Assembly: GCA_963715865.1 (NCBI GenBank)
Contig: OY970280.1
Location: forward strand, 320,001 to 384,000
Direction: 5' to 3'
DNA length: 64,000 nt
Source of the DNA: Candidatus Bathyarchaeota archaeon
GTDB taxonomy: Archaea > Thermoproteota > Bathyarchaeia > Bathyarchaeales > Bathycorpusculaceae
The notes below the pieces were generated by a model that had not been told where the DNA came from, did not search any database, and saw only the letters and a program-made list of their open reading frames with translations. Positions 13,067 through 53,841 of this stretch are shown here, piece after piece. Both the position numbers and the translations under genes were made by a program. Every line of letters begins with the position of its first letter. Position 1 is the stretch's first letter.

Positions 13067-14032
13067 CTACCTAATCCTAACTCTAGGATCAATGTAAACG
13101 TAGAGAATGTCCATTATGAGATTTGCTATTAGCGCCATTACTGTGATTATCATTGTTATTCCCATAATTGTTGGAAAATCCAAGTTAAGAGTTGATGAAA
13201 CATATTGGCGTCCGAGACCTGGCCAACTGAAAACGTATTCAGTCATAGGAGCGCCGGCAATCATAGTCCCAAGTGCTATTGCAAGAAAAGTCAGCGCAGG
13301 CGTGATTGCGTTTCTAAGTGCGTACCCGTAGACCACTTTTCTTTCGCTGATGCCACTTGCTCTTGCGGCTAAAATGTAATCAGATCTCAGAGCTTCTAGC
13401 ATGTTTGCTCTGATTAGGCGGATGTTTTGAGCTAGTGAAACGTAAACAAGTACCGCCACTGGCAAAATTAGATGCGCAATTTGGTCAAGTACTGGGTTGC
13501 CCCACCACACGAATCCTGCTGCTCCTTGTGAACCTGCTGAGGGTAGCCAGCCAAGCGTGAATGAAAATACGATGATGAGGATGAGCCCAAACCAGAAAGT
13601 TGGCATTGAAACTCCGAAGAGTGAGAATGAAGTTACTGTAACATCTTGCTTCGAGTATGGTTTTCTCGCTGAGTTTACCGCAATCGGTATAGAAATTGCG
13701 AACGCGATTAATTGTGAAAATATTTGAAGTTCCATAGTTGGCCAAATCTTTGGTTCTATTATGAGATTAACAGGTTGTCCACCGTAAAGTGATTTGCCGA
13801 AATTCAACTGTAGAATGTTTGTTAGCCAGGTTAAATATTGAATTGGTATTGGCTTATTTAGTCCATAATACGTACTCAACGCATTGAGCGTCGCTGCATC
13901 TATGTTTGGCTTTCCAATTCTGATAAGATCAAGAGGGTTTCCGGCAGCATACATTGCTACGAAAGCTATAATCGAGATTCCCAATGCTACGGGAATCATA
14001 TAAAGGAGCCTCCTTACGATGTACCTGAGCAT
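13067..14032 (-). CDS. oppB: Oligopeptide ABC transporter permease
   Basis: MLRYIVRRL, EAA loop DYILAARASGI, EYVFSWPGLG; start set at ATG 14032. Confidence 0.92.
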   Translation of the reverse strand: MLRYIVRRLLYMIPVALGISIIAFVAMYAAGNPLDLIRIGKPNIDAATLNALSTYYGLNKPIPIQYLTWLTNILQLNFGKSLYGGQPVNLIIEPKIWPTMELQIFSQLIAFAISIPIAVNSARKPYSKQDVTVTSFSLFGVSMPTFWFGLILIIVFSFTLGWLPSAGSQGAAGFVWWGNPVLDQIAHLILPVAVLVYVSLAQNIRLIRANMLEALRSDYILAARASGISERKVVYGYALRNAITPALTFLAIALGTMIAGAPMTEYVFSWPGLGRQYVSSTLNLDFPTIMGITMIITVMALIANLIMDILYVYIDPRVRIR

Positions 14033-18176: not shown

Positions 18177-18295
18177 TGGTGCAGGGGGTGGGATTTGAAC
18201 CCACGAACCTCTACAGGATAGGCTCCTGAAGCTATCGCACCGCTCTCTTGTGGGAGGGCAGTTCTACGCCTTTGACCATGCTCGGCGACCCCTGC
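18177..18295 (-). tRNA. tRNA-Leu(CAG) with a 31-nt non-canonical intron; CCA encoded
   Basis: GCAGGGG/CCCCTGC acceptor stem, GGTTCAAATCC T-arm, long variable arm; removing 18233-18263 restores TAGGC-TT-CAG-GA-GCCTA. Confidence 0.93.
18233..18263 (-). other. tRNA intron at position 29/30 (anticodon stem), relaxed bulge-helix-bulge
   Basis: Intron AACTGCCCTCCCACAAGAGAGCGGTGCGATA; ACTGC pairs with GCGGT; central helix has 3 of 4 pairs. Confidence 0.85.
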
Positions 18296-43793: not shown

Positions 43794-44144
43794 CTAAACG
43801 TTATTTATTGCCATAGAAATATAAGAATTATTAATTTTTAGGTGAAAGCTAAAGAGATTGAATTTTTAAAAAATGAAAAAATCGGCTGTATAGTTTACTT
43901 ATAATCGTTCTCTTAATTTTTCTGTAAGAAGCCTTACAATTTCTTCTTTATCTTTTTCTATGAAATTCCAGAGTTGTTTACTTTCGTTGTCCAACAAACT
44001 AATTTTTTTTACATTAGGTTGATAAAAATTAATCTTTCTTTGAAAACGCATTATCGCTCATGAGCCATCATCACATGATAAATATAAAAAAGTTCGTTTA
44101 GGCAGATACTAACCGAAACAAACTTTACGTATTCGTACAATGGT

Positions 44145-44167
44145 GGTTCGAATCCCAGCGGGCCCGC
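44145..44167 (+). repeat. Isolated tRNA 3'-end fragment (att-like; tRNA-Arg-type acceptor)
   Basis: GGTTCGAATCCCAGCGGGCCCGC = T-loop plus 3' T-stem plus acceptor strand, with no 5' half upstream. Confidence 0.65.
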
Positions 44168-44340
44168 TCCCAACGGACCGCATTTATAACGCTGCTTCTT
44201 GTCGGCAATTTTAATGAACTGGTGAGGGTGTCGCTAATCTTTATGGAAACGCTTAGACAACATGGTTTTTGGATTATTGACTTTTGGAGCTTGCCAAAAA
44301 GAATCGGAGAGAAATTCTAAAAATATTTTTTGCTGTCTAT

Positions 44341-45141
44341 TTAAAAGCCTGTATGATTTTCGTCGGTTCCTTTCTCGTGATAGATCTCTTTTATTATTGC
44401 TTCAATAGGCTTGCCCACACTTGCCGAGCCGCGCTCCTTTTCTAAATTTATGATCGACCACCCTTTCACTCGTGCCCATGGAGGCAGAGTCTTACCTATA
44501 ATTAAAACACCGTCATACAGAAATAACACGTCTCTTTTAATGTCCTCAGGAGCTATTATAATCCATTTAGAAGCTGCTCCTAGAATTATTCTCGCCAATC
44601 CATAGGAGAGGATATCAATATTCTGACTCCTGTAAATAATGAATAGTTTAAATCTGTCGGTTCTAGAATGTTCCAGCAATTTGCGAACAATATCCTCAGG
44701 AATTGTTTCGCGAACCATGTTGAGTTCTACATCTTTTTCAAAATCCATCGGTACCTCGAGAGGTGCTATTTCGCCAGTAGGCACACCATTTCTTTCCGTG
44801 AACTCTGCCATTAAATTGTCCACAGAACTTAACAGAAGCTTCTTCTGCAACAGTAAGTCCGTTGGTATTTCAACTATATGTGAAACAACACCGCTGCGCT
44901 TTAACTCATCTAAACCTTGAGCCTGAAAAACTCTCGCCAAATAAAGCCTATTTTTTCCAACAACCATAACCTTTTCAAGAAAGCCTCTCTGTACAACGGA
45001 TTGATCGAAAGGAATTAGGAAGTCTTTAAAAGCATTCTTAAACAAATCCACATCTGCTGCTTTGGTTTTTGCTCTCACAGAGTATCCCTTGTACGGCGCT
45101 GGAGCATAGATTATTTGTTCGACGGAGGCGAAATTCATCAA
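44341..45141 (-). CDS. GAP1-N2/DENN-like GTPase-associated protein
   Basis: EQIIY...GYSVRAKT start and GLDELKRSGVVSHIV motif; 9 nt downstream of the GTPase. Confidence 0.55.
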   Translation of the reverse strand: MMNFASVEQIIYAPAPYKGYSVRAKTKAADVDLFKNAFKDFLIPFDQSVVQRGFLEKVMVVGKNRLYLARVFQAQGLDELKRSGVVSHIVEIPTDLLLQKKLLLSSVDNLMAEFTERNGVPTGEIAPLEVPMDFEKDVELNMVRETIPEDIVRKLLEHSRTDRFKLFIIYRSQNIDILSYGLARIILGAASKWIIIAPEDIKRDVLFLYDGVLIIGKTLPPWARVKGWSIINLEKERGSASVGKPIEAIIKEIYHEKGTDENHTGF

Positions 45142-45149
45142 GTTTGCAC

Positions 45150-46199
45150 CTAACCTATGCCAACAGCGTCGCTCTCGTCTTCTATTTTCTTTTTATCACT
45201 AATCTTGTTAGCAATTTTTCCGAAGTACTGTATGAAGCTCTTGTACTCTGTTTCCGAGTATATTAGTTCATTGGCTTGCCCCTTCTTAACAACTTTTGGA
45301 ACCAAAATGCCATCTTCATTAAGCTCTGTTAATGCATAGCTTATAAAAATTGGCGCATCTTGCATTTCTGTTCCAACCAGACTTGCGCCATATATTTGTG
45401 AAAGGGACGATCTAAAGAAAGTCTTTGCAAAATTATTGAAGAATTTCCACCTGAGGTGCCTATCATTACTTAGTTTATCAACCCATTGAATATATTCTTC
45501 CGGTACCGGTACTCCCACCCCTTTTTTTATAGATGGATCAATGGCATCAAATTTTGTTAATACAAACACAGGAAAGAGTTGCTTTTTTCCCTTATCATAT
45601 CTTGAGCGGTACTTACCGATATAAGAGATGAGCGAGGACATTAAGGTGTCATATTTCAACATTTCATCGTATCTTGGATCTTTTCGGTCGGCAGCAATTT
45701 TTTCCGAGTCTATCAAGAACACTATAACATCTGAATTGAGCGCGCTTAGCAGAGACGGTGCGACAGATTCAGATAAAGGCACACCACTACTCTTGGACTC
45801 TTCGAGATACCTACTCAACATTTCAACATCTTCGCCAGCAACGTCAAAAAGCTTAAAATTGACAGTGTTAAATAGCTCTCCGCGAGTAACAGTCCTTTCT
45901 CTGAGCTTTACAAGCTGCTTTTCAACCTCTTCCTTAGCGGCTAATAAGGTTCTTGTGAAAATATTACTATAGCCAAAGCTAAAATTGTATTCCAAAAGAG
46001 AACCCTTTATTGTTGCAGGCGGCCATAGCGACTTTTTTAAGCTCGTCAACATTTCCCCTGTGACAGTACAAGTAAGCGGATCCCTGTACACTCTGAAATA
46101 ATTTTTATTATTAACACTGTAATTTATTGCTGTATTAAGCAATAAAGCCACAAAAACACTTTTTCCGCTACTACGCCCCCCCACAATTGAAACAGGCAT
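45150..46199 (-). CDS. TRAFAC-class P-loop GTPase
   Basis: G1 GGRSSGKS, G2 WPPAT, G3 DVAG, G4 TKFD; start set at ATG 46199. Confidence 0.85.
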   Translation of the reverse strand: MPVSIVGGRSSGKSVFVALLLNTAINYSVNNKNYFRVYRDPLTCTVTGEMLTSLKKSLWPPATIKGSLLEYNFSFGYSNIFTRTLLAAKEEVEKQLVKLRERTVTRGELFNTVNFKLFDVAGEDVEMLSRYLEESKSSGVPLSESVAPSLLSALNSDVIVFLIDSEKIAADRKDPRYDEMLKYDTLMSSLISYIGKYRSRYDKGKKQLFPVFVLTKFDAIDPSIKKGVGVPVPEEYIQWVDKLSNDRHLRWKFFNNFAKTFFRSSLSQIYGASLVGTEMQDAPIFISYALTELNEDGILVPKVVKKGQANELIYSETEYKSFIQYFGKIANKISDKKKIEDESDAVGIG

Positions 46200-46328
46200 A
46201 TTATCCCTCAAAATAAGATTATCATCTCATAAGGGAATTAATATATTTTTCTTATTTTGCCTTATTTCGGATAACACATTAAGCAAGCTAAATGAATACT
46301 GTCATCGCTTTGACTTTTTTGTCGCGCG

Positions 46329-48314
46329 TTATTTCAGGATGAAGGATATTCTGTCTGCTTTTTTAGTAACGGGATTCAACGTTATTTTCTTTTCTATTGC
46401 AACCTCGTTTTTGTAAGCATCAGCAAACTTGAATATACTGGTTACAACATTATCCACTCTAACTTTATCTGGAAGTATTCGTCCACACATGACACTTATT
46501 GTTTCGTCTAAATCAGTCAAGGCGGAATCTGAAGGTCTAACGGTAATTTCGCGTCCATCCTTCAGATTTCTAAGATACTCAGCAATCCTAATCAAGGATT
46601 TATCAGCTAAAATCGATGTAATTTTCTTGGCATTAGGCCCTTTTACAGAATAAAGGGCTATCAGCAAGTTCCTATAGCCTTCCTTTTCAGAATGATTTCC
46701 GTATGGCAGTTTAATTTTCACATTATCACTAAACGCTTCCTCTATTTGTTTTAACCAATCTTTTGGTGTGCCCATTTTTAGCAACTCCACATTTATCTCC
46801 TTAATTTGCAGCGCCTCAGAGGGCGTAGATTGAGTAGATGGTAGAGACGGTATTGACGGTATTTGTGCTTTTATTTTTTCTATTGCCCTTCGTGCCACTT
46901 GATTGATAGTCTTCCTTTCAGCGCGCGCGTGAATAGGAATACCTAACACTTTTTGTGTATTGGTTTTGTCTTCAATATCGTCAAATTCAATATTAAAGTC
47001 GGGCACTTCTAGAACTTCTTTTTCTGGCATTATAAGGGTTACAGCAAGCTCCTCTGTTTGACCACTCTTGAGTCTGGCTATTTTGCAATCGACAGCACCA
47101 GATTTTATGTACTTTGGGTCAAAGGGCAGAGTGAAAGTCAAGTTTTTTGCGTCACCTTCGCCCATGTTTGATATTTTTAGGATCAGAGTGAAAGGCTTTT
47201 TCATCTCGACATCTTTCGGATAGTCAAAGGCAACTTGTAAGTTGGGTTGAAGGGTTGTTATTTGTGCTTCAAAACTGGCGATTGGGGTGCTAAACGGTTT
47301 TCCAACAGAGTCTTGAAAGGTCACTTTCAGATCCTCGAAATGGAAAGTGCCGCTTTTTCTTGTTTTCAAAGCTATCTTGTGGTTGACGCTTCCATGAGAG
47401 GCTATGTTTCCGATCTTTGTCGCTATCTTCTCCATAACTTCAAATTCAGGATGGTTTTCGAGACCTTCAAGTTCCACATTTTTGGCAAGGCCAGCCCCTC
47501 TGTTAACAATATCCAAAGTTAATTCAAGAATGTCTTGGGAATACGCTTCATAAATACTCTTATTTTGTGAAACTATTAATTCAGGCGCTAATGGCTTCAC
47601 ACTAAGCGCGGCGCTGATGGGTTCCTTTCCAAAATAGATGCCCTCAACGGTTCCTCCTAATCCAACGACTACTACAAGATCGCCGTGGGCGCTGGCTTCA
47701 AATTCATATTTCTCCACGTATTTCCCTTTGAATAACTTTGAAGGCGTTTTTGGTGTCCCTTCAATCTCAAGTTCTGACGGCGCTTCAATGCTTATTTTGG
47801 GGTCATAAATTTCGCAAGGCGAATTTATCTCTATGTTTAATGTAGATTTTTCGCCGACCGTAATTGTTTCCGGTTCAAACCACGCTTTAACCGACGGCTG
47901 GTTTTCCCCTTCCTTTGTGTACCACCCTCGCACTTCTTCATTGATTATATTTCTTTCTGCCAACTCTTTAAGAAGCCAAAGCATATCGTTTGTGTCGACG
48001 CCGAAATGAGTTACCAAATCCATAAAGTAGACCGCCTTATACCCAGACGAGATAAAAGCGATGTCGTCTCTTGTAACGCCTATTAATTTGCCGTTGCCAA
48101 TGGCTTGCTTATTAACAAAATACTTGATGTTTGAGCTTTGAAGTTGAGATATGACAGGCTCTATTTCATTGTATATAGCTGATTCATCAAGGTTCATTGC
48201 CTTTGCTATATCGCTGATGTTTTTGATTATCGTAGCCGTCACGCCAAGTGCTATTATGTTTAATATGTATGGGCATAAATGCTTTTTCATAAAAATTTTC
48301 AGTTGACGAGCCAT
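46329..48314 (-). CDS. Cytoplasmic scaffold: tandem wHTH, about three CARDB/BatD-like Ig domains, unknown C-terminal domain
   Basis: No signal peptide or TM; repeats of L.I.N.G.G.AKN; N-terminal ISDIAKAMNLD and FMDLVTHFGVD helices. Confidence 0.7.
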   Translation of the reverse strand: MARQLKIFMKKHLCPYILNIIALGVTATIIKNISDIAKAMNLDESAIYNEIEPVISQLQSSNIKYFVNKQAIGNGKLIGVTRDDIAFISSGYKAVYFMDLVTHFGVDTNDMLWLLKELAERNIINEEVRGWYTKEGENQPSVKAWFEPETITVGEKSTLNIEINSPCEIYDPKISIEAPSELEIEGTPKTPSKLFKGKYVEKYEFEASAHGDLVVVVGLGGTVEGIYFGKEPISAALSVKPLAPELIVSQNKSIYEAYSQDILELTLDIVNRGAGLAKNVELEGLENHPEFEVMEKIATKIGNIASHGSVNHKIALKTRKSGTFHFEDLKVTFQDSVGKPFSTPIASFEAQITTLQPNLQVAFDYPKDVEMKKPFTLILKISNMGEGDAKNLTFTLPFDPKYIKSGAVDCKIARLKSGQTEELAVTLIMPEKEVLEVPDFNIEFDDIEDKTNTQKVLGIPIHARAERKTINQVARRAIEKIKAQIPSIPSLPSTQSTPSEALQIKEINVELLKMGTPKDWLKQIEEAFSDNVKIKLPYGNHSEKEGYRNLLIALYSVKGPNAKKITSILADKSLIRIAEYLRNLKDGREITVRPSDSALTDLDETISVMCGRILPDKVRVDNVVTSIFKFADAYKNEVAIEKKITLNPVTKKADRISFILK

Positions 48315-48319
48315 TGTTT

Positions 48320-48531
48320 TAGCGCGTGCGCGCTAGTTGTCTCGAGGGAGATGGACGGCTTTCACTTTTATGTTTGTAATCGGCTGGACTTTTCTGCTAG
48401 GCAGGTTCTTTTGGCGTACAAGGTGAGGCATCGTATAGACGAGTTTTATAGGGATGTTAAGCAGAATTTGGGGTTGGAGGCGTATCAGATGCGCGCCTAT
48501 GTGAAGTCCGCTATTTAGCCCGCGCGCGCTA
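48320..48531 (+). mobile_element. MITE-like internally deleted IS: IS4/IS701-like transposase fragment between GC palindromes
   Basis: RHRIDEFYRDVKQNLGLEAYQMR fragment; flanks TAGCGCGTGCGCGCTA and TAGCCCGCGCGCGCTA. Confidence 0.7.
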
Positions 48532-48586
48532 TGCGTACGCACGATAATTAAAAGTTTAAAAGTTAAAAAGTTTAGTTAAATACCTG

Positions 48587-50197
48587 TTGGGGCTGACTTT
48601 GAAAAAGACGATAGTCGTTGTAATTCTTGCAGCCTTAACTTTAGCTGCGTTTAGCATGTTGTGGGCACCGAGTGTGAGAGCGAATACTTCCGAAGCCAAG
48701 GTTCTCAGTTACAGTTGGCACGTTGCCCCCGCAGACACTGTTACAGCAGAGTATGTTGGTGATTTGGTTGCGGTCGGTGAGATACAAAATGTAGGTTTAA
48801 ATGTCATAGGGTACGTGGATGTTGACGGATTTGCTTACAATTCTAAGGGACAGCTTTTGGATTCGGCGACCGGTGTAGTATATGGAAACAGTTTGCTTCC
48901 TGGGCAGAAAGCTCCTTTCTACTTGGATTTTACTGCTCAGAGTAGCACTAGCCAAGACCTAAGCTGGGTCTCTTCAGTTAGTACTGTTACCGTTTCAGTT
49001 AGTTCCGTTGAGGATACTACTGCGACTCAGTATTCAGGTTTGACGATTCCAAATCCTGGAGGTAACACTTCTTACATCGACAGCAATGGCACCTACACTG
49101 TTTATGGAACACTGGTGAACAACGGCAGCCAAGCGGCTGTAGATCCTTGGGTTGTAGCAACATTTTATAACGCTGCCGGGACGGTTATAGGTTTGAATTA
49201 CACCAACTACTTAACTGACTCGCTTGCGCCTGGTGAGACGGTAAGGTTTTTTGCAACACCCACGGATAACACAGCTCAATTATCAAGTGAAATAGCAAGT
49301 TATTCTTTACTGATTCAGTCCGAGCCGCTAACGACTTCAACGTCGCCCACTCCAACTCCAACGTCAACGTCAATTCCAACGTCAACGCCTACGCCAACAC
49401 TTTCTCCAACTTCGACAGCTAAGCCTACGCCCACATTTTCACCTGCTCCAACTTCTACACCTGTGGTATCGTCGACTTTCTGGTCACAAAACCAGCTAAC
49501 GCTAATTTCAGTTGCAGTTGTAGTAGTGGTGGGAGCTCTCGTTCCCAGCGTTTATTATAGTCGCCTGAAACCTTCACGACACAACAAATGCAGTAAATTG
49601 GTCGCTAAGGGTGAGGATCTGGTTAAGAAAAATGATTTACCTCAAGCTGTAGAGTGCTTTGCGAGGGCAAGCATTGTAGGTTTCAAAACGAAATCTTATG
49701 ATGCTGCAGCAAACGCCTTAGAACGGTACACTGCAACAGCAAAAGCTTTAATCATTAAATCCTTTTTAGGCGGAGCCAAACCTGAAGCCTATGAACGCGT
49801 CAGCAAATTGCAAAGTGAAATCGCAAAGGTCACCTCAGATAAGAATATGCAAACCTCGATTGGCGGTTCTAACATTGAACAGGTTAGTTTACTTGAGGGT
49901 GTTAGGGGTCTTGATTTGCTCATTGCCAAGGCACGCGAAAATGACCTGGATTTTATGATTGATGAAGCTTTGAAGGCTCCTGAAGTAGAACACGCTTTTC
50001 TCGGAGCATTCAACGGTTCAGATGAGGTTGAGATAGTGGATTTAGCTGCAAAGTTAGGATACAGCGTAGAGGCAGCGTTCAGGCTTCTGTCAAAATGCAT
50101 TAATTTAAAGAAGATTGAAGGCTACCTCACAAGCGACAGCAAAAAGTTCATCTCAAAAGAATACGTGCAAAAACAACTATCAACCCATCTAAAATAG
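48587..50197 (+). CDS. Single-pass receptor-like protein: two FxLYD-type ectodomains, PT-rich stalk, TM, TPR-like helices, C-terminal wHTH
   Basis: Signal peptide; VGEIQN and VYGTLVNN..VVATFYNAAG..LAPGE repeats; TPTP linker; IEGYLTSDSKKFISKE. Confidence 0.8.
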   Translation: MGLTLKKTIVVVILAALTLAAFSMLWAPSVRANTSEAKVLSYSWHVAPADTVTAEYVGDLVAVGEIQNVGLNVIGYVDVDGFAYNSKGQLLDSATGVVYGNSLLPGQKAPFYLDFTAQSSTSQDLSWVSSVSTVTVSVSSVEDTTATQYSGLTIPNPGGNTSYIDSNGTYTVYGTLVNNGSQAAVDPWVVATFYNAAGTVIGLNYTNYLTDSLAPGETVRFFATPTDNTAQLSSEIASYSLLIQSEPLTTSTSPTPTPTSTSIPTSTPTPTLSPTSTAKPTPTFSPAPTSTPVVSSTFWSQNQLTLISVAVVVVVGALVPSVYYSRLKPSRHNKCSKLVAKGEDLVKKNDLPQAVECFARASIVGFKTKSYDAAANALERYTATAKALIIKSFLGGAKPEAYERVSKLQSEIAKVTSDKNMQTSIGGSNIEQVSLLEGVRGLDLLIAKARENDLDFMIDEALKAPEVEHAFLGAFNGSDEVEIVDLAAKLGYSVEAAFRLLSKCINLKKIEGYLTSDSKKFISKEYVQKQLSTHLK

Positions 50198-50235
50198 CGC
50201 GAGACCGAGAAAAAGCTCTTAAAAAACCAATGACG

Positions 50236-51666
50236 CTAATATTTTAATAGCAACGCCTCAAGGTTTTTTCTCAGGCCATTTTTGGAAAGGTATTTTTCTC
50301 CGTCAAGTGTCATGTACCCATAGACATTTCCATGCTGTATGCTTCTTAGCAGGAACTTTTTTGTGACATCAAGGCTAAACCCGAGGCTATATGCCAAATC
50401 AGCTAAAGCTATTTCGTCTTTATCCTGAAGCAGAATTAAGAGCTTTTTCTCGGTCTCTATGCGCGCGTGCGTGCGTGATATAAGCAACCCAGCAATAATG
50501 GCGATAATCGCAATTACAACTACCATAACTACAATAATGCTTAGAGATGACGAATTTATGGGCAATGAGATGACGGATGGGGTTGAGGATGGGGTTGAGG
50601 TTACAATTAGGTTACCGGTCCCAGTGCTTGACAAATATTCTGTGCTTCCGGCGAACGAGGCGGTGATAACACATGTCTGGGGAGCGACATTGATGTTGTA
50701 TGATAATACTGCGTTCCCAGACGAGCCGGTAATCGCTGTCCCTATTGATGTTTGCCCGATGCTGAAGCTTATCTGCTCGTTTGCCACTGGATTTCCATTG
50801 TCATCTAAAAGCTGAGCCGTTATAATGGTTGACGCACCTTCGTTGGCAACCGAAGGATTTGTACTCACTGTTATTTTTGTTCCTAATTGCGTTACACTTA
50901 CTTGAGCACTGAAGTTTTCAGCATGGGAGGTTCCCTCAAAATCGTTATAGCTTATTTGAAAACTAACAGTTACTGTACCTGTGGATAATGTGTTGGGTGC
51001 CACAACTGAAAAGCTGGTTGATTCAGTTCCTTGACTTGAGATGTCTCCTAAATCTGTCGAAATAGGCGTTATTTGTAGACCGCTTGAATCCTGAATAGAA
51101 ATGGACGTTTTATACATTATGTCGTTTCCACCATTTTGGAAACTCACTGCCCAATTAGTACCAGCTATTTTTCCCGTTTCTACGGAAATCTGAGCGGGCT
51201 GCCAGTTAGCAACGAAGAGTTTCACTACTTGAATATTGAAAGTTTTAGAATCTTCAAGATAATATGTTCCTGAGCTGTCCCACCATAATTCCACTCTACA
51301 ACTTAGGGTAGTTGGACCAATTGGATTGAAAGTCCATTGTCGTCCATCCGCGGTCCCTTTTAGGTCGTAGTTCTCGTTTGAAGTATATGTCAAAGCATTA
51401 TTTTCGTAGAATTTAATGTATAAATCTGCTCCGAGAACACCGCAATTGCTGTTTTGATATGTTGCATGAATTGTAGTTAGTTGTCCGTCATAAACTTGAG
51501 CGGTTCCTCCATTCAAAAGATTGATTGTACCATTTCCATTGGTGACATCGATTGCATTAAAAGACGCATCGTAATATGGCTGCGCATGAACAGGTTGAAC
51601 TAAGACAAGAATGCTGCTTAGTGCAAATAACGAGATTGCGAGAAAAACGAGTAATCCTTTTTCCAT
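50236..51666 (-). CDS. Single-pass receptor-like protein: Ig/CARDB ectodomains, TM, C-terminal wHTH
   Basis: Signal peptide, FQNGG..., Big-like LLDDNGNPVAN, TM, GYMTLDGEKYLS. Confidence 0.8.
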   Translation of the reverse strand: MEKGLLVFLAISLFALSSILVLVQPVHAQPYYDASFNAIDVTNGNGTINLLNGGTAQVYDGQLTTIHATYQNSNCGVLGADLYIKFYENNALTYTSNENYDLKGTADGRQWTFNPIGPTTLSCRVELWWDSSGTYYLEDSKTFNIQVVKLFVANWQPAQISVETGKIAGTNWAVSFQNGGNDIMYKTSISIQDSSGLQITPISTDLGDISSQGTESTSFSVVAPNTLSTGTVTVSFQISYNDFEGTSHAENFSAQVSVTQLGTKITVSTNPSVANEGASTIITAQLLDDNGNPVANEQISFSIGQTSIGTAITGSSGNAVLSYNINVAPQTCVITASFAGSTEYLSSTGTGNLIVTSTPSSTPSVISLPINSSSLSIIVVMVVVIAIIAIIAGLLISRTHARIETEKKLLILLQDKDEIALADLAYSLGFSLDVTKKFLLRSIQHGNVYGYMTLDGEKYLSKNGLRKNLEALLLKY

Positions 51667-51881
51667 GGTTACCGCTGCATAGCCTATATTTGCTAGAACT
51701 TAACTTAAAACTTTTCACGCGCGCGAAAGTGTTCATTAATTCATTTTTGGCTTGATTTCGTAAATTGAGCCTTTTTCAAGCTTTTAATACGTGAACGCAG
51801 CTATGCTGTTTGCCGGTTCAGGCGCACGGGCAAGTTAAATAATTATTTAGAAGAGCCTGATCTCTTCATTTTGACCTTAAA

Positions 51882-52292
51882 ATGGAGAAATCAGGTTCTC
51901 CTACGCTTCTATTCGCGAACTTGGATTTAAAACCTCTTCAACCCATACTCTGGAAAGGTCTACACACCGAGGGAGCAGGGCGGCCAGTAGAATACGATCC
52001 AGCATGCGACCTGCGAGCATTGATGCTTCGTCAACTAGTGCAGATACCCTACGTTAAAGACCTGGTCAAGCGACTTAAACGAGAACAAAAACTGCGTTCT
52101 GCCTGCGGATACCACGACAAAGCCCCCACTGAAGCTCATTTCTCACAGATGAAGAAGCGCGTAGGCGTTGAAGGCTTTAAGCAAATAGAGAAGTGGCTAC
52201 GGCACGAAGCCTTAAGGCTCAAACACAATGATCGCGTAACTCTTGTTCAAAACAGCGACAATCCGTTAACCATCACTTTTAAAGAAAGGTAG
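51882..52292 (+). pseudogene. Truncated IS5/IS1182-like transposase (DUF772-type N-terminus only)
   Basis: GAGRP...DLRALMLRQL...RLKR..LRSACG...PTEAHFSQMKKRVG; no DDE domain. Confidence 0.8.
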
Positions 52293-53505
52293 AAACCCAA
52301 AACATTAGTGTTTTACTAGGCAGAGCTTCAATATTTTTTCTTAAGCCGTTTCTAGAGATGTACTTTTCCTCGTCAAGGGTAATGTAACCGTATAGGTTGC
52401 TGCGCGTTAAGCTTCTTCTGAGGAACTTTTTTGTAATGTTGAGGCTAAACCCAAGGCTGTATGCTAAATCAGCTAAAGCTATTTCATCTGTATACCTAAG
52501 TAGAATTAAGAGTTTTCTATCGGTTGCTGATATGAAATCTTTTGTAACGGGGTCGCTTATCGCGTCCAGATCTTTCGTCTCAAGCTGTTCGATTAAGATT
52601 CGCCGAGCTCGAAATGTGGTCAGGTATTGAGTTGCGAAAGCAGTTGGGATTCCAATAAGGCCTATTAGTAGAGTAGCCATTCCAATCATTAGAAATCCGT
52701 AACCGAAATGGTTCTCAATTGAAGCAGCTGCCCATGCATTAGCAACAATTGAGCCGACAAAAGATGAACCTATTGCGAAACCGATAATCCATAAGCTGCC
52801 AAATAACACTTTTTCTTTAACCCGAATCGGCTTTTCCGCTTTAACTTGCTCTATGTATCTTTTAATGGTGGCATTAATGACTCCGAAGGCTCCCAAACTA
52901 ATGGTGAATATGCCGACCAGCAGTGTTCCAAAACCAACGTAATTCGCTACCGTATATTTTGCCCATTCATTACCAGTCACAGACCCTATAAGGAACATTA
53001 CAATTCCACAGGCTACGGCTAACACGCCGTTAAACAGAGGGGTGCTATGTTTTGCCCCTAGGACATAGGCGGTGGCGATTCCTACCACGCCCAGGATAAG
53101 AGCAGCCGATCCGACCATTAACATTCCAAAGCCAAAGTAGTTTTCGATAGTGAATTTTGCCCATGTGCTGCCTGTCAACGAGCCAACGATAAAGAGGGCA
53201 ACTCCACAAGCAAAAAGATGCAATTTTTGAAACAAGGACTTTAAAGATGATAATTCGGAGAACCGGCTCGGTAGCCATCTGGGAATTCTTTTTTCTCTTG
53301 CCAAGATTGTTTTAAAAATTCCCTCTGCCAATAGGAAGATCCCTAAAACGATGAAGACTATTCCCGCCGAGAGAATTCCGAAGCCTACGTAGTTTTCGAT
53401 GGTGAACTTTGCCCAACTCTTACAGGCATCTGACCCTGCAGCCGAAAAAACTATTCCGGCAATAATAGCGCTTAAACCGCTAAGCAAGGGCTTTTGTAGT
53501 TTCAA
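52279..53505 (-). CDS. Polytopic membrane protein with four internal repeats and a C-terminal wHTH
   Basis: Four GS....WAK(F/Y)T(I/V).N(Y/H).G(F/Y)G repeats; wHTH 75% identical (48/64 aa) to that of 50236..51666. Confidence 0.8.
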   Translation of the reverse strand: MKLQKPLLSGLSAIIAGIVFSAAGSDACKSWAKFTIENYVGFGILSAGIVFIVLGIFLLAEGIFKTILAREKRIPRWLPSRFSELSSLKSLFQKLHLFACGVALFIVGSLTGSTWAKFTIENYFGFGMLMVGSAALILGVVGIATAYVLGAKHSTPLFNGVLAVACGIVMFLIGSVTGNEWAKYTVANYVGFGTLLVGIFTISLGAFGVINATIKRYIEQVKAEKPIRVKEKVLFGSLWIIGFAIGSSFVGSIVANAWAAASIENHFGYGFLMIGMATLLIGLIGIPTAFATQYLTTFRARRILIEQLETKDLDAISDPVTKDFISATDRKLLILLRYTDEIALADLAYSLGFSLNITKKFLRRSLTRSNLYGYITLDEEKYISRNGLRKNIEALPSKTLMFWVSTFL

Positions 53506-53598
53506 GGTGCCGTACTCTCTATTGTATCGGTTATTAATTGAGTGTATGAGGCTTTAAACATATAACGTTTAAGATGATTGTGTACTAGTTTTTGCTTG

Positions 53599-53841
53599 TC
53601 AGGTTACTGCTGTTTGATTCTGCTTTTTTGAAAAAACCGCCAAAATAACAGTTGCCAATATAAGCACCAAGAGTACTGCACCGAAAATAATGAGTGGAAT
53701 CCTAAAGGCTGGCTCGGAATGCAGAACCGTAGTTGAAGGTAGACCTCCCAAATAAGCCGCTAAGAAAATACCCACGAAAACGGCGCCTATTCCTTGAAGG
53801 GAGAATAAAACTGTGGTTAATTTTTTGTTAGCTAATGTCAT
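53599..53841 (-). CDS. Small two-TM membrane protein
   Basis: Two hydrophobic segments; GGTGA-type RBS context. Confidence 0.65.
   Translation of the reverse strand: MTLANKKLTTVLFSLQGIGAVFVGIFLAAYLGGLPSTTVLHSEPAFRIPLIIFGAVLLVLILATVILAVFSKKQNQTAVT

What the first reader, a model, noticed from the sequence alone, without database searches (positions are those of the whole stretch)
44341..48314. Three-gene archaeal GTPase module: wHTH-Ig scaffold, TRAFAC GTPase, GAP1/DENN-like partner
Seen: co-oriented genes; a complete G1-G4 set in a 350-aa GTPase with long inserts; a partner starting EQIIY..GYSVRA with GxD..R.G..H; no signal peptides; flanked by an att-like fragment and IS debris. Established: bacterial GTPase-centred ternary conflict systems pair such GTPases with GAP1-N proteins, and eukaryotic DENN domains are GEFs for Rab GTPases. 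Inference: an archaeal switch module (GTPase, regulator, scaffold) acting in defence or membrane-linked signalling. This is the strongest candidate for an undescribed system in the window.
Basis: partly seen in the sequence, partly recalled or inferred. Interest (0 to 1): 0.86.

Follow-up and report, generated by a model that had tools for sequence, protein, structure and literature searches.

The report
Archaeal GTPase with GAP1/DENN-fold partner
A 9.6-kb strain-specific island in this archaeon carries a conserved trio: a GTPase switch, a partner protein folded like eukaryotic longin-DENN regulators and bacterial GAP1, and a protein ending in an undescribed adaptor-like domain. It is a very divergent archaeal version of the bacterial "double-GTPase/GAP1" conflict systems, and its function is untested.

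Summary
Three co-oriented minus-strand genes encode a wHTH/Ig-repeat protein (661 aa), a TRAFAC GTPase with G1, G3 and G4 motifs (353 aa), and a 266-aa partner carrying the quoted motifs.

- **Pairing:** the partner gene lies directly downstream of the GTPase gene in 19 of 20 independent archaeal loci (Desulfurococcaceae, Methanomassiliicoccales, Nitrososphaerota, Thermoplasmata).
- **Third component:** only the last ~190 residues of the large protein are conserved. This domain ("P1C") matches no Pfam family or clear fold. It sits in an adjacent gene in 18 loci.
- **Partner fold:** the model is confident (pLDDT 88). It shows a longin domain plus an α/β domain. Best PDB matches are TagF and DENND1A/B. 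ESM Atlas matches are bacterial clusters carrying GAP1-N2 and GAP1-M (TM 0.61-0.64). No Pfam GAP1 model detects the family by sequence.
- **GTPase:** it has the Walker-B glutamate typical of DO-GTPases and weak DO-GTPase2 hits.
- **Relatives:** some fuse the partner to TIR, HerA or AAA+ domains, or sit beside kinases and FHA proteins.
- **Island:** the trio lies in an insertion (window 44047-53623) missing from the closest congener and not found in 40 related genomes.

Verdict: a new variant of a known kind. This scan found similar GTPase/DENN-fold pairs before in Asgard and Thermoplasmata genomes.

The parts
44047..53623 (.). About 9.6-kb strain-specific island holding the whole system; flanked by an imperfect direct repeat TT(C/T)TTTGAAAA
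   Evidence: The closest congener G046 (94-99% identical flanks) joins window 44046 directly to about 53623. The empty site was aligned. GTPase-family genes were not found in 24 congeners or 16 same-order genomes.
44145..44170 (+). tRNA 3'-end fragment (T-arm and acceptor stem), att-like remnant about 100 bp inside the left island end
   Evidence: Read. Unique in the window with 0 expected by chance and unique in the genome. No intact tRNA is called here.
44341..45141 (-). GAP1-like / DENN-fold partner (266 aa; probable start ATG 45138). Longin-like domain at residues 4-118, alpha/beta domain at residues 138-255
44878..44898 (-). RSGVVSH motif of the partner. R82 is invariant in the near family and nearly invariant in the wide set; H88 is invariant in the wide set. 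Candidate GTPase-contacting or arginine-finger loop between longin strands 4 and 5
   Evidence: Translation. Conservation. Position relative to strands. The functional role is inference.
45150..46211 (-). DO-GTPase-like TRAFAC GTPase (353 aa ORF; probable start ATG 46199, 349 aa)
   Evidence: G1, G3 and G4 verified. Walker-B Glu E127 is invariant. Pfam DO-GTPase2 gives 20 bits for this protein (cut-off 27); 17 of 23 family members hit it, best 1.9e-8. Single copy in the genome.
46332..46907 (-). P1C: conserved ~190-aa C-terminal domain of the 661-aa protein (residues 470-661). This is the third constant component of the module
46920..47894 (-). Ig-like beta-sandwich repeats of the 661-aa protein (residues about 141-465), a variable putative sensor module
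   Evidence: Pfam TRAP_beta 3.9e-10 (residues 248-337) and CARDB 3e-8 (residues 357-431). The same module occurs with P1C in L014 and L021, and fused to Ser/Thr kinases in L007 and L008.
47895..48314 (-). N-terminal region (residues 1-140), probably tandem winged helices; lineage-specific
   Evidence: Only weak Pfam HTH hits (E 0.13-0.18). No homologue in the fetched loci. No similarity to the neighbours' wH module.
48587..50197 (+). Island gene: membrane receptor-like protein (536 aa; signal/TM segments) ending in a shared ~80-aa cytoplasmic module
   Evidence: TM segments. Weak PCI hit. The shared C-terminal module also occurs beside GTPase loci L008, L007 and L014.
50236..51666 (-). Island gene: Ig-ectodomain membrane protein (476 aa) with the same C-terminal module
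   Evidence: Big_1 and Big_3_5 hits. TM segments. Module shared.
51882..52292 (+). Transposase fragment (DUF772 N-terminal part only)
   Evidence: Pfam PF05598, E 5.6e-7.
52279..53505 (-). Island gene: polytopic membrane protein (408 aa) with the same C-terminal module
   Evidence: Multiple hydrophobic segments. Its module is 73.5% identical over 68 aa to that of the 476-aa protein.

Best explanation
The three genes are the constant core of a horizontally acquired, very divergent archaeal relative of the bacterial DO-GTPase/GAP1 'GTPase-centred ternary' systems.

Proposed mechanism:
- The GTPase is the nucleotide-dependent switch.
- The downstream protein is a minimal GAP1 (N and M domains only) with a longin + DENN-like fold. 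It binds the GTPase through its longin face and sets its nucleotide state. I judge a GAP acting through the conserved Arg82 loop most likely, and an exchange factor less likely.
- The P1C domain is an adaptor that couples the pair to a variable input or output module. Here that module is a cytoplasmic wHTH + Ig-repeat sensor.
- Output probably runs through associated modules. In other lineages these are TIR, HerA/AAA+ ATPases, and Ser/Thr kinases with FHA proteins. In this island they may be the three membrane proteins that share one cytoplasmic module.
- The most likely biological role is conflict or defence-type stress signalling, not housekeeping.

What is shown: gene linkage, motif conservation, predicted folds, island status and fusions.

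What is inferred: binding, GAP versus GEF, the adaptor role of P1C, and the defence role.
For: - **Linkage.** The partner is immediately downstream of the GTPase in 19 of 20 loci from four archaeal lineages. P1C is in an adjacent gene in 18.
- **GTPase.** It is TRAFAC-type with an invariant Walker-B Glu (DxxGE), the stated hallmark of DO-GTPases (Kaur et al. 2020, PMC7159879). 17 of 23 members hit Pfam DO-GTPase2 (best 1.9e-8) and 6 hit DO-GTPase1. Methanomassiliicoccales loci carry a second paralogous GTPase, matching the 'double' layout.
- **Partner versus GAP1.** ESM Atlas shape search gives TM 0.61-0.64 over 216-231 residues to bacterial clusters carrying GAP1-N2, GAP1-M and GAP1-C. Language-model neighbours are GAP1-N2/N1/M clusters, scores 0.89-0.92.
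- **Effector-type fusions at the position described for bacterial GAP1.** Partner + C-terminal TIR in L021. TIR + partner, HerA + partner, and partner + AAA+.
- **Kinase and FHA neighbours** in L003, L007, L008 and L013. This parallels the kinase theme of GAP1-N2 systems.
- **Island status.** It is a 9.6-kb insertion relative to the closest congener. The GTPase family was not found in 40 related genomes. The partner family has only 63 representatives among 1.84 billion.
Against: - No Pfam GAP1-N1, GAP1-N2, GAP1-M or DENN model detects any of 69 family members. PF20013 finds nothing in this genome or in 5 other archaeal genomes that carry the module.
- The window's own GTPase scores below the DO-GTPase2 cut-off (20 versus 27 bits).
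- There is no GAP1-C, no d-DENN, no FNIII protein, no zinc ribbon and no second GTPase in this window.
- No PADLOC family hits the three proteins or the island neighbours.
- No recognisable enzymatic effector lies in this island.
Confidence: 0.6

Rival explanations
1. It is a non-defence signalling switch wired into Ser/Thr phosphorylation. The GTPase, its DENN-fold regulator and P1C form a cytoplasmic relay that receives input from receptor kinases and FHA proteins (or, here, from membrane receptors with a shared cytoplasmic module). It controls a physiological response such as envelope or surface-structure behaviour, much as TagF works with Fha and PpkA in type VI secretion.
For: Pkinase and FHA genes flank the module in L003, L007, L008 and L013. 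The wHTH-Ig module of the 661-aa protein is fused to kinases in L007 and L008. The best solved structural match is TagF. TagF acts through the FHA protein Fha and is fused to a PP2C phosphatase in Agrobacterium (PMC5995506). Three membrane receptor-like genes share the island, and their cytoplasmic module recurs beside the GTPase pair in L008, L007 and L014.
Against: There is no kinase, phosphatase or FHA gene in this island. TIR and HerA/AAA+ fusions in relatives point to immunity-type outputs. The patchy, island-borne distribution is unusual for core signalling. This rival overlaps with the best explanation, because GAP1-N2 systems also include kinase themes.
Confidence: 0.2
2. It is a housekeeping-type polarity, membrane or cytoskeleton switch comparable to MglA/MglB or the Asgard Roadblock/GTPase/DENN operon, i.e. 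a primitive trafficking-like GTPase with its GEF.
For: The longin/DENN fold of the partner. Longin and roadblock proteins are the classical partners of MglA-, Arf-, Rab- and Rag-type GTPases (PMC3521125). DENN-GTPase operons are predicted in Asgard archaea (bioRxiv 10.1101/2020.10.19.343400).
Against: The GTPase is not a small Ras-, Arf- or MglA-like protein. It is a 350-aa DO-GTPase-like protein. The module was not found in 24 congeners and sits in a 9.6-kb insertion. The family is very rare. TIR fusions are present.
Confidence: 0.07
3. It is decaying cargo of a degenerate integrated element with no current function in this host. The genes are intact by chance or serve the element's own maintenance.
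For: The tRNA fragment, the transposase fragment and the flanking repeat. No integrase is left. The island is strain-specific.
Against: All three ORFs are full length. They keep every family-invariant residue and motif. Their layout is the same as in 19 other loci.
Confidence: 0.08

Closest known systems
DO-GTPase / GAP1 GTPase-centric ternary conflict systems, GAP1-N2 type (Kaur, Burroughs, Iyer, Aravind 2020, eLife; PMC7159879; Pfam PF19993, PF19975, PF20013, PF20014, PF20052)
   Same: A TRAFAC GTPase with Walker-B Glu. The partner is encoded directly downstream. The partner fold matches GAP1 N+M clusters. A beta-sandwich-repeat protein is the third, variable component. Some relatives have effectors fused to the partner's C-terminus, doubled GTPases and kinase neighbours. 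The distribution is mobile and patchy.
   Different: It is archaeal and far below Pfam detection for GAP1. The partner lacks GAP1-C. The GTPase lacks zinc ribbons and TM helices and is single here. The repeats are Ig-like (TRAP_beta/CARDB), not FNIII. A distinct constant domain (P1C) is not described for the bacterial systems.
Eukaryotic DENN module (DENND1A/B-Rab35; FLCN/FNIP, C9orf72/SMCR8, Nprl2/3 longin-DENN GAP complexes)
   Same: [quoted passage not shown] The protein is paired with a GTPase. A conserved arginine sits in a longin-domain loop.
Asgard Roadblock (LAMTOR1-like) / Rab-like GTPase / DENN operon (Liu et al., bioRxiv 10.1101/2020.10.19.343400)
   Same: An archaeal operon joining a GTPase with a DENN-fold protein.
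   Different: A different GTPase family and no Roadblock gene. It occurs in lineages outside Asgard (Desulfurococcaceae, Methanomassiliicoccales, Nitrososphaerota, Thermoplasmata) and is island-borne. It has its own third component, P1C.
TagF (DUF2094), post-translational repressor of type VI secretion (PDB 9T0N, 2QNU, 6IZ8)
   Different: No T6SS in archaea. TagF has no known GTPase partner. No sequence similarity.
MglA/MglB
   Same: A prokaryotic GTPase with a roadblock/longin-superfamily regulator encoded next to it.
   Different: MglB is a single small roadblock domain and MglA is a small Ras-like GTPase. Here the partner has two domains and the GTPase is DO-type.

Membership tests
DO-GTPase (PF19993 / PF19975) | TRAFAC GTPase with Walker A, Walker B and [NT]KxD motifs | tested here: met
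   GGRSSGKS, DVAGED and TKFD verified and conserved in 23 homologues.
DO-GTPase (PF19993 / PF19975) | Conserved glutamate in the Walker B motif (Kaur et al. 2020) | tested here: met
   E127 in DxxGE is invariant in alignment A2. The criterion is quoted from PMC7159879.
DO-GTPase (PF19993 / PF19975) | Match to the Pfam model above its gathering score | tested here: inconclusive
   The window protein scores 20.0 bits against a cut-off of 27. 17 of 23 family members hit DO-GTPase2 at E<=1, best 1.9e-8, and 6 hit DO-GTPase1.
DO-GTPase (PF19993 / PF19975) | Two paralogous GTPase copies in the system (seen in 38% of bacterial systems) | tested here: not met
   Single copy in this genome. A second paralogue is present in the Methanomassiliicoccales and Thermoplasmata loci.
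GAP1 (PF20013 GAP1-N2, PF20014 GAP1-M, PF20052 GAP1-C) | Encoded immediately downstream of the DO-GTPase gene | tested here: met
   19 of 20 loci. The gap is 8 bp in the window.
GAP1 (PF20013 GAP1-N2, PF20014 GAP1-M, PF20052 GAP1-C) | Sequence match to the GAP1-N2, GAP1-N1 or GAP1-M Pfam models | tested here: not met
   0 of 32 and 0 of 37 members hit. PF20013 is absent from this genome and from 5 genomes carrying the module.
GAP1 (PF20013 GAP1-N2, PF20014 GAP1-M, PF20052 GAP1-C) | Same fold as GAP1 N + M domains | tested here: met
   ESM Atlas shape search gives TM 0.61-0.64 over 216-231 residues to bacterial clusters annotated GAP1-N2, GAP1-M and GAP1-C. Language-model neighbours are GAP1 clusters. 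Both sides are predicted models.
GAP1 (PF20013 GAP1-N2, PF20014 GAP1-M, PF20052 GAP1-C) | Third globular domain GAP1-C | tested here: not met
   The protein ends about 10 residues after the second domain. P1C on the neighbouring protein gave no GAP1-C signal.
GAP1 (PF20013 GAP1-N2, PF20014 GAP1-M, PF20052 GAP1-C) | Companion FNIII-repeat protein (GAP1-N2-type systems) | tested here: inconclusive
   The companion here has Ig-like TRAP_beta/CARDB repeats, not FNIII. This is analogous, not shown to be homologous.
DENN module (uDENN/longin + DENN + dDENN) | N-terminal longin domain | tested here: met
DENN module (uDENN/longin + DENN + dDENN) | Central alpha/beta DENN domain following the longin domain | tested here: inconclusive
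DENN module (uDENN/longin + DENN + dDENN) | C-terminal helical d-DENN domain | tested here: not met
   The protein ends at residue 266 with one short helix after the alpha/beta domain.
DENN module (uDENN/longin + DENN + dDENN) | GEF (or GAP) activity on a cognate GTPase | not testable with these tools
   This needs biochemistry.
TagF (DUF2094) | Sequence membership and T6SS gene context | tested here: not met
   No Pfam hit. No T6SS genes in the window. The likeness is structural only.

The most novel reading that the evidence does not exclude
GAP1-type partners of DO-GTPases are one ancient prokaryotic longin-DENN family. They are spread by mobile conflict islands across bacteria and archaea well outside Asgard. 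The eukaryotic DENN module (and TagF) would descend from it. The archaeal branch would add a previously undescribed adaptor domain (P1C) that docks interchangeable sensors (wHTH-Ig, kinases) onto the switch.
Probability: 0.25. Interest if true: 0.8.

Novelty: new variant of a known kind. Interest (0 to 1): 0.55.

Why it matters
If the reading is right, this is a compact, soluble, thermostable three-protein version of the DO-GTPase/GAP1 systems. I found no experimental study of those systems in the papers searched. It would be well suited to asking biochemically what GAP1 does to its GTPase.

It also places a longin + DENN-like GTPase partner in archaeal lineages outside Asgard and ties it structurally to bacterial GAP1 and TagF. 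That bears on where eukaryotic DENN-type regulators came from.

The P1C domain and the shared cytoplasmic module of the three island membrane proteins are unannotated parts that recur with the switch.

Tried and rejected
- **Complex prediction.** GTPase (A2) + partner (A1) gave 'weak support': ipSAE median 0.34 (runs 0.34, 0.01, 0.37), best of 3 controls 0.01. Runs agree in at least 58% of contacts and the partner pLDDT is at least 78. The calibration says passes at 0.60 or under are more often wrong than right unless the pairing was likely beforehand. I do not count it as evidence either way.
- **PDB sequence and profile searches.** Nothing useful for the GTPase or the partner.
- **PADLOC.** No hits for the trio or the island neighbours. 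Hits of the upstream 600-670-aa and ~205-aa proteins of other loci to LmuB/JetC are coiled-coil matches, which I set aside.
- **N-terminus of the 661-aa protein versus the neighbours' shared module.** No similarity.
- **A P1C 'longer proteins' search.** It returned mostly one 437-aa Methanomassiliicoccales form and added no new architectures.


Full report
**Observation.**
The window holds three co-oriented minus-strand ORFs at 46329-48314 (661 aa), 45150-46211 (353 aa) and 44341-45141 (266 aa). The gaps are 117 bp and 8 bp.

The middle protein has GGRSSGKS, DVAGED and TKFD at the stated positions. In an alignment of 23 homologues these motifs, a WPPAT.KG stretch and the glutamate after the Walker-B glycine are conserved or invariant. 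Homologues start at MPVSIVGG, so the real start is probably ATG 46199. This matches the 349-aa protein on record.

The last protein carries EQIIYAPAPYKGYSVRA and GLDELKRSGVVSH. Both are conserved across 32 relatives.

Hydropathy shows no membrane segment in the GTPase or the partner. The large protein has only a borderline N-terminal segment.

A tRNA 3' fragment at 44145-44170 is real and unique in the genome. A DUF772 transposase fragment lies at 51882-52292.

**Family searches.**
Pfam gives the large protein two Ig-like hits (TRAP_beta 3.9e-10, CARDB 3e-8) and only weak HTH hits. It gives the GTPase sub-threshold DO-GTPase2 and MMR_HSR1 hits, and the partner nothing. NCBIfam and PADLOC give nothing.

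Across the GTPase family, 17 of 23 members hit DO-GTPase2 (best 1.9e-8) and 6 hit DO-GTPase1.

Kaur et al. 2020 define DO-GTPases as TRAFAC GTPases with a conserved Walker-B glutamate. They are usually followed by a GAP1 gene, and GAP1-N2-type systems add a beta-sandwich (FNIII) repeat protein. Effectors are often fused to GAP1. About 10% of GAP1-N2 neighbourhoods have a kinase theme, and the systems occur in 'a few archaea'.

**Co-occurrence.**
The GTPase family is small: 30 clusters in 5.8 billion proteins. The partner family has 63 representatives in 1.84 billion.

I fetched 20 independent loci from metagenomes and species genomes. They come from Desulfurococcaceae-type archaea, Methanomassiliicoccales, Nitrososphaerota and Thermoplasmata.

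Profile searches of their ORFs show the partner directly downstream of the GTPase in 19 of 20. The exception (L003) has two GTPase copies, each followed by ankyrin-kinase genes. Methanomassiliicoccales and Thermoplasmata loci hold a second, divergent GTPase paralogue.

The large protein is a mosaic.
- Its Ig region recurs with the same C-terminal domain in L014 and L021, and fused to Ser/Thr kinases in L007 and L008.
- Its last ~190 residues ('P1C') occur in a gene next to the pair in 18 loci. That gene may be upstream, downstream or convergent, and its N-terminus varies.

So the triad is real, but its third constant element is P1C, not the wHTH-Ig part.

**Folds.**
The partner model is confident (pLDDT 88.3, pTM 0.83). 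It has a beta-beta-alpha-beta-beta-beta-alpha-alpha N-domain and an alpha/beta C-domain.

- Foldseek finds four matches at E<=0.001: TagF and DENND1A/B.
- The N-domain alone matches many longin domains: VAMP7, Lst4, FLCN/FNIP, C9orf72/SMCR8, Nprl, TRAPP and a Lokiarchaeal Roadblock-Longin protein.
- The ESM Atlas shape search is clearer. It gives TM 0.74 to archaeal clusters. It gives TM 0.61-0.64 over 216-231 residues to bacterial clusters whose members carry GAP1-N2, GAP1-M and GAP1-C. Language-model neighbours are also GAP1 clusters.

Yet no member of the family is detected by any Pfam GAP1 model. PF20013 is silent in this genome and in five other genomes with the module.

I therefore read the partner as a minimal, highly divergent GAP1 (N+M) whose fold is longin + DENN-like. 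Zhang et al. 2012 describe the DENN core as longin plus an alpha/beta domain of P-loop-like topology without nucleotide-binding residues, which fits.

P1C also folds confidently (pLDDT 91.3). It has no convincing match in PDB, BFVD or the Atlas feature search.

**Context and mobility.**
The GTPase and partner are single-copy in this 2.35-Mb genome. The GTPase family was not found in 24 congeners or 16 same-order genomes.

DNA comparison with the genus shows that the closest relative joins window 44046 directly to about 53623. Alignment of the empty site confirms a 9.6-kb insertion flanked by TT(C/T)TTTGAAAA.

The island contains the trio, the transposase fragment and three membrane proteins (536, 476 and 408 aa). 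These three end in one shared ~80-aa cytoplasmic module. That module also occurs beside the GTPase pair in L008, L007 and L014.

**Functional hints from relatives.**
- The partner is fused to a C-terminal TIR domain in a Nitrososphaerota locus.
- It is fused to an N-terminal TIR, to HerA-type ATPases and to AAA+ ATPases in other representatives.
- Kinase and FHA genes flank the module in four loci.
- TagF, the best solved match, represses type VI secretion through the FHA protein Fha. In Agrobacterium it is fused to a PP2C phosphatase (PMC5995506).

**Interpretation.**
The best-supported reading (about 0.6) is a divergent archaeal DO-GTPase/GAP1-type ternary system on an acquired island.
- The GTPase is the switch.
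- The GAP1/DENN-fold protein is its regulator.
- P1C is an adaptor to variable sensor or output modules.

By analogy with longin-domain GAPs, I favour GAP action through the conserved Arg82 loop. R82 is invariant in the near family and nearly invariant in the wide set, and H88 is invariant in the wide set. This step is inference.

A defence or conflict role is suggested by the TIR, HerA and AAA+ fusions and by the mobility, but it is not shown. This island has no recognisable enzymatic effector and no PADLOC hit.

The complex prediction gave only weak support and is reported under Tried and rejected.

**Novelty.**
DO-GTPase/GAP1 systems are published, and DENN-GTPase operons are published for Asgard archaea. 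The longin/DENN nature of GAP1 is not mentioned in the 2020 paper, which has no occurrence of 'longin'.

Earlier follow-ups in this same scan reached the GAP1 = longin-DENN reading on Asgard and Thermoplasmata genomes. Those are AI notes, not independent evidence.

What is particular here:
- The lineage spread, which lies outside Asgard.
- Sequence divergence beyond Pfam detection.
- The P1C domain.
- The link to a shared receptor module.

I rate it a new variant of a known kind, with interest 0.55.

Noticed in passing
window 48587-53505: Three membrane receptor-like proteins (536, 476 and 408 aa) with unrelated N-terminal parts end in one shared ~80-aa cytoplasmic module. The same module occurs in small genes beside the GTPase-partner pair in L008 (293 aa), L007 (130 aa) and L014 (262 aa). 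It may therefore belong to the system.
   Followed up: partly
window 44036-44046 and 53624-53634: An imperfect 11-13-bp direct repeat TT(C/T)TTTGAAAA flanks the 9.6-kb island. The closest congener has a single copy at the empty site.
   Followed up: yes
L021:11038-12258: In a Nitrososphaerota MAG the GAP1-like partner carries a C-terminal TIR domain (TIR_2, 4.2e-13). Other representatives fuse the partner to an N-terminal TIR (P0095), to HerA/DUF87 ATPases (P0085, P0104, P0126) or to AAA+ ATPases (P0121, P0125).
   Followed up: partly
L009:4528-8769: One metagenomic locus has, next to the P1C gene, two further GTPase genes (439 and 321 aa) with weak DO-GTPase1/2 Pfam hits and a 635-aa gene between them. 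This may be a second, more canonical DO-GTPase set adjoining the archaeal module.
   Followed up: no
L001:1137-5235 and L010:7109-12742: A four-gene set (about 257-284, 285+527 or fused 726, 290, and 361-573 aa; no Pfam) is conserved next to the GTPase cluster in two Desulfurococcales-type loci, in opposite orientation. It may be another linked system.
   Followed up: no
L001:5271-7915, L007, L010, L008, L003, L013: A 520-670-aa coiled-coil protein often sits just upstream of the GTPase in crenarchaeal-type loci, frequently with a ~205-aa coiled-coil protein. Both are missing from this window.
   Followed up: partly
P1C model (window 46332-46907): The C-terminal helix + beta-meander half of P1C has weak, recurrent Foldseek similarity to small proteins of Sulfolobus rudiviruses and lipothrixviruses. 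These include AFV1 ORF99, SIFV ORF14 and the anti-CRISPR AcrID1 (E 0.008-0.07, about 80-120 columns). This is too weak to interpret.
   Followed up: partly
window 51717-51823: A ~105-bp element is repeated at about 80% identity elsewhere in this genome and on many contigs of congeners (query 13718-13824). It looks like a MITE-like repeat next to the transposase fragment.
   Followed up: no
window 48598-49362: The N-terminal part of the 536-aa island protein has paralogous copies elsewhere in the genome (G000:C1:1409463-1410227 at 86% and 1283291-1284011 at 76%) and in congeners.
   Followed up: no
window 43903-44053 (minus strand): A small ORF of about 50 aa spans the left island junction, so its start codon lies in island DNA. 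The insertion may have altered its N-terminus.
   Followed up: no
window 18180-18295: A tRNA match of 116 nt (Rfam 36.4 bits) that ARAGORN did not call is probably an intron-containing archaeal tRNA.
   Followed up: no
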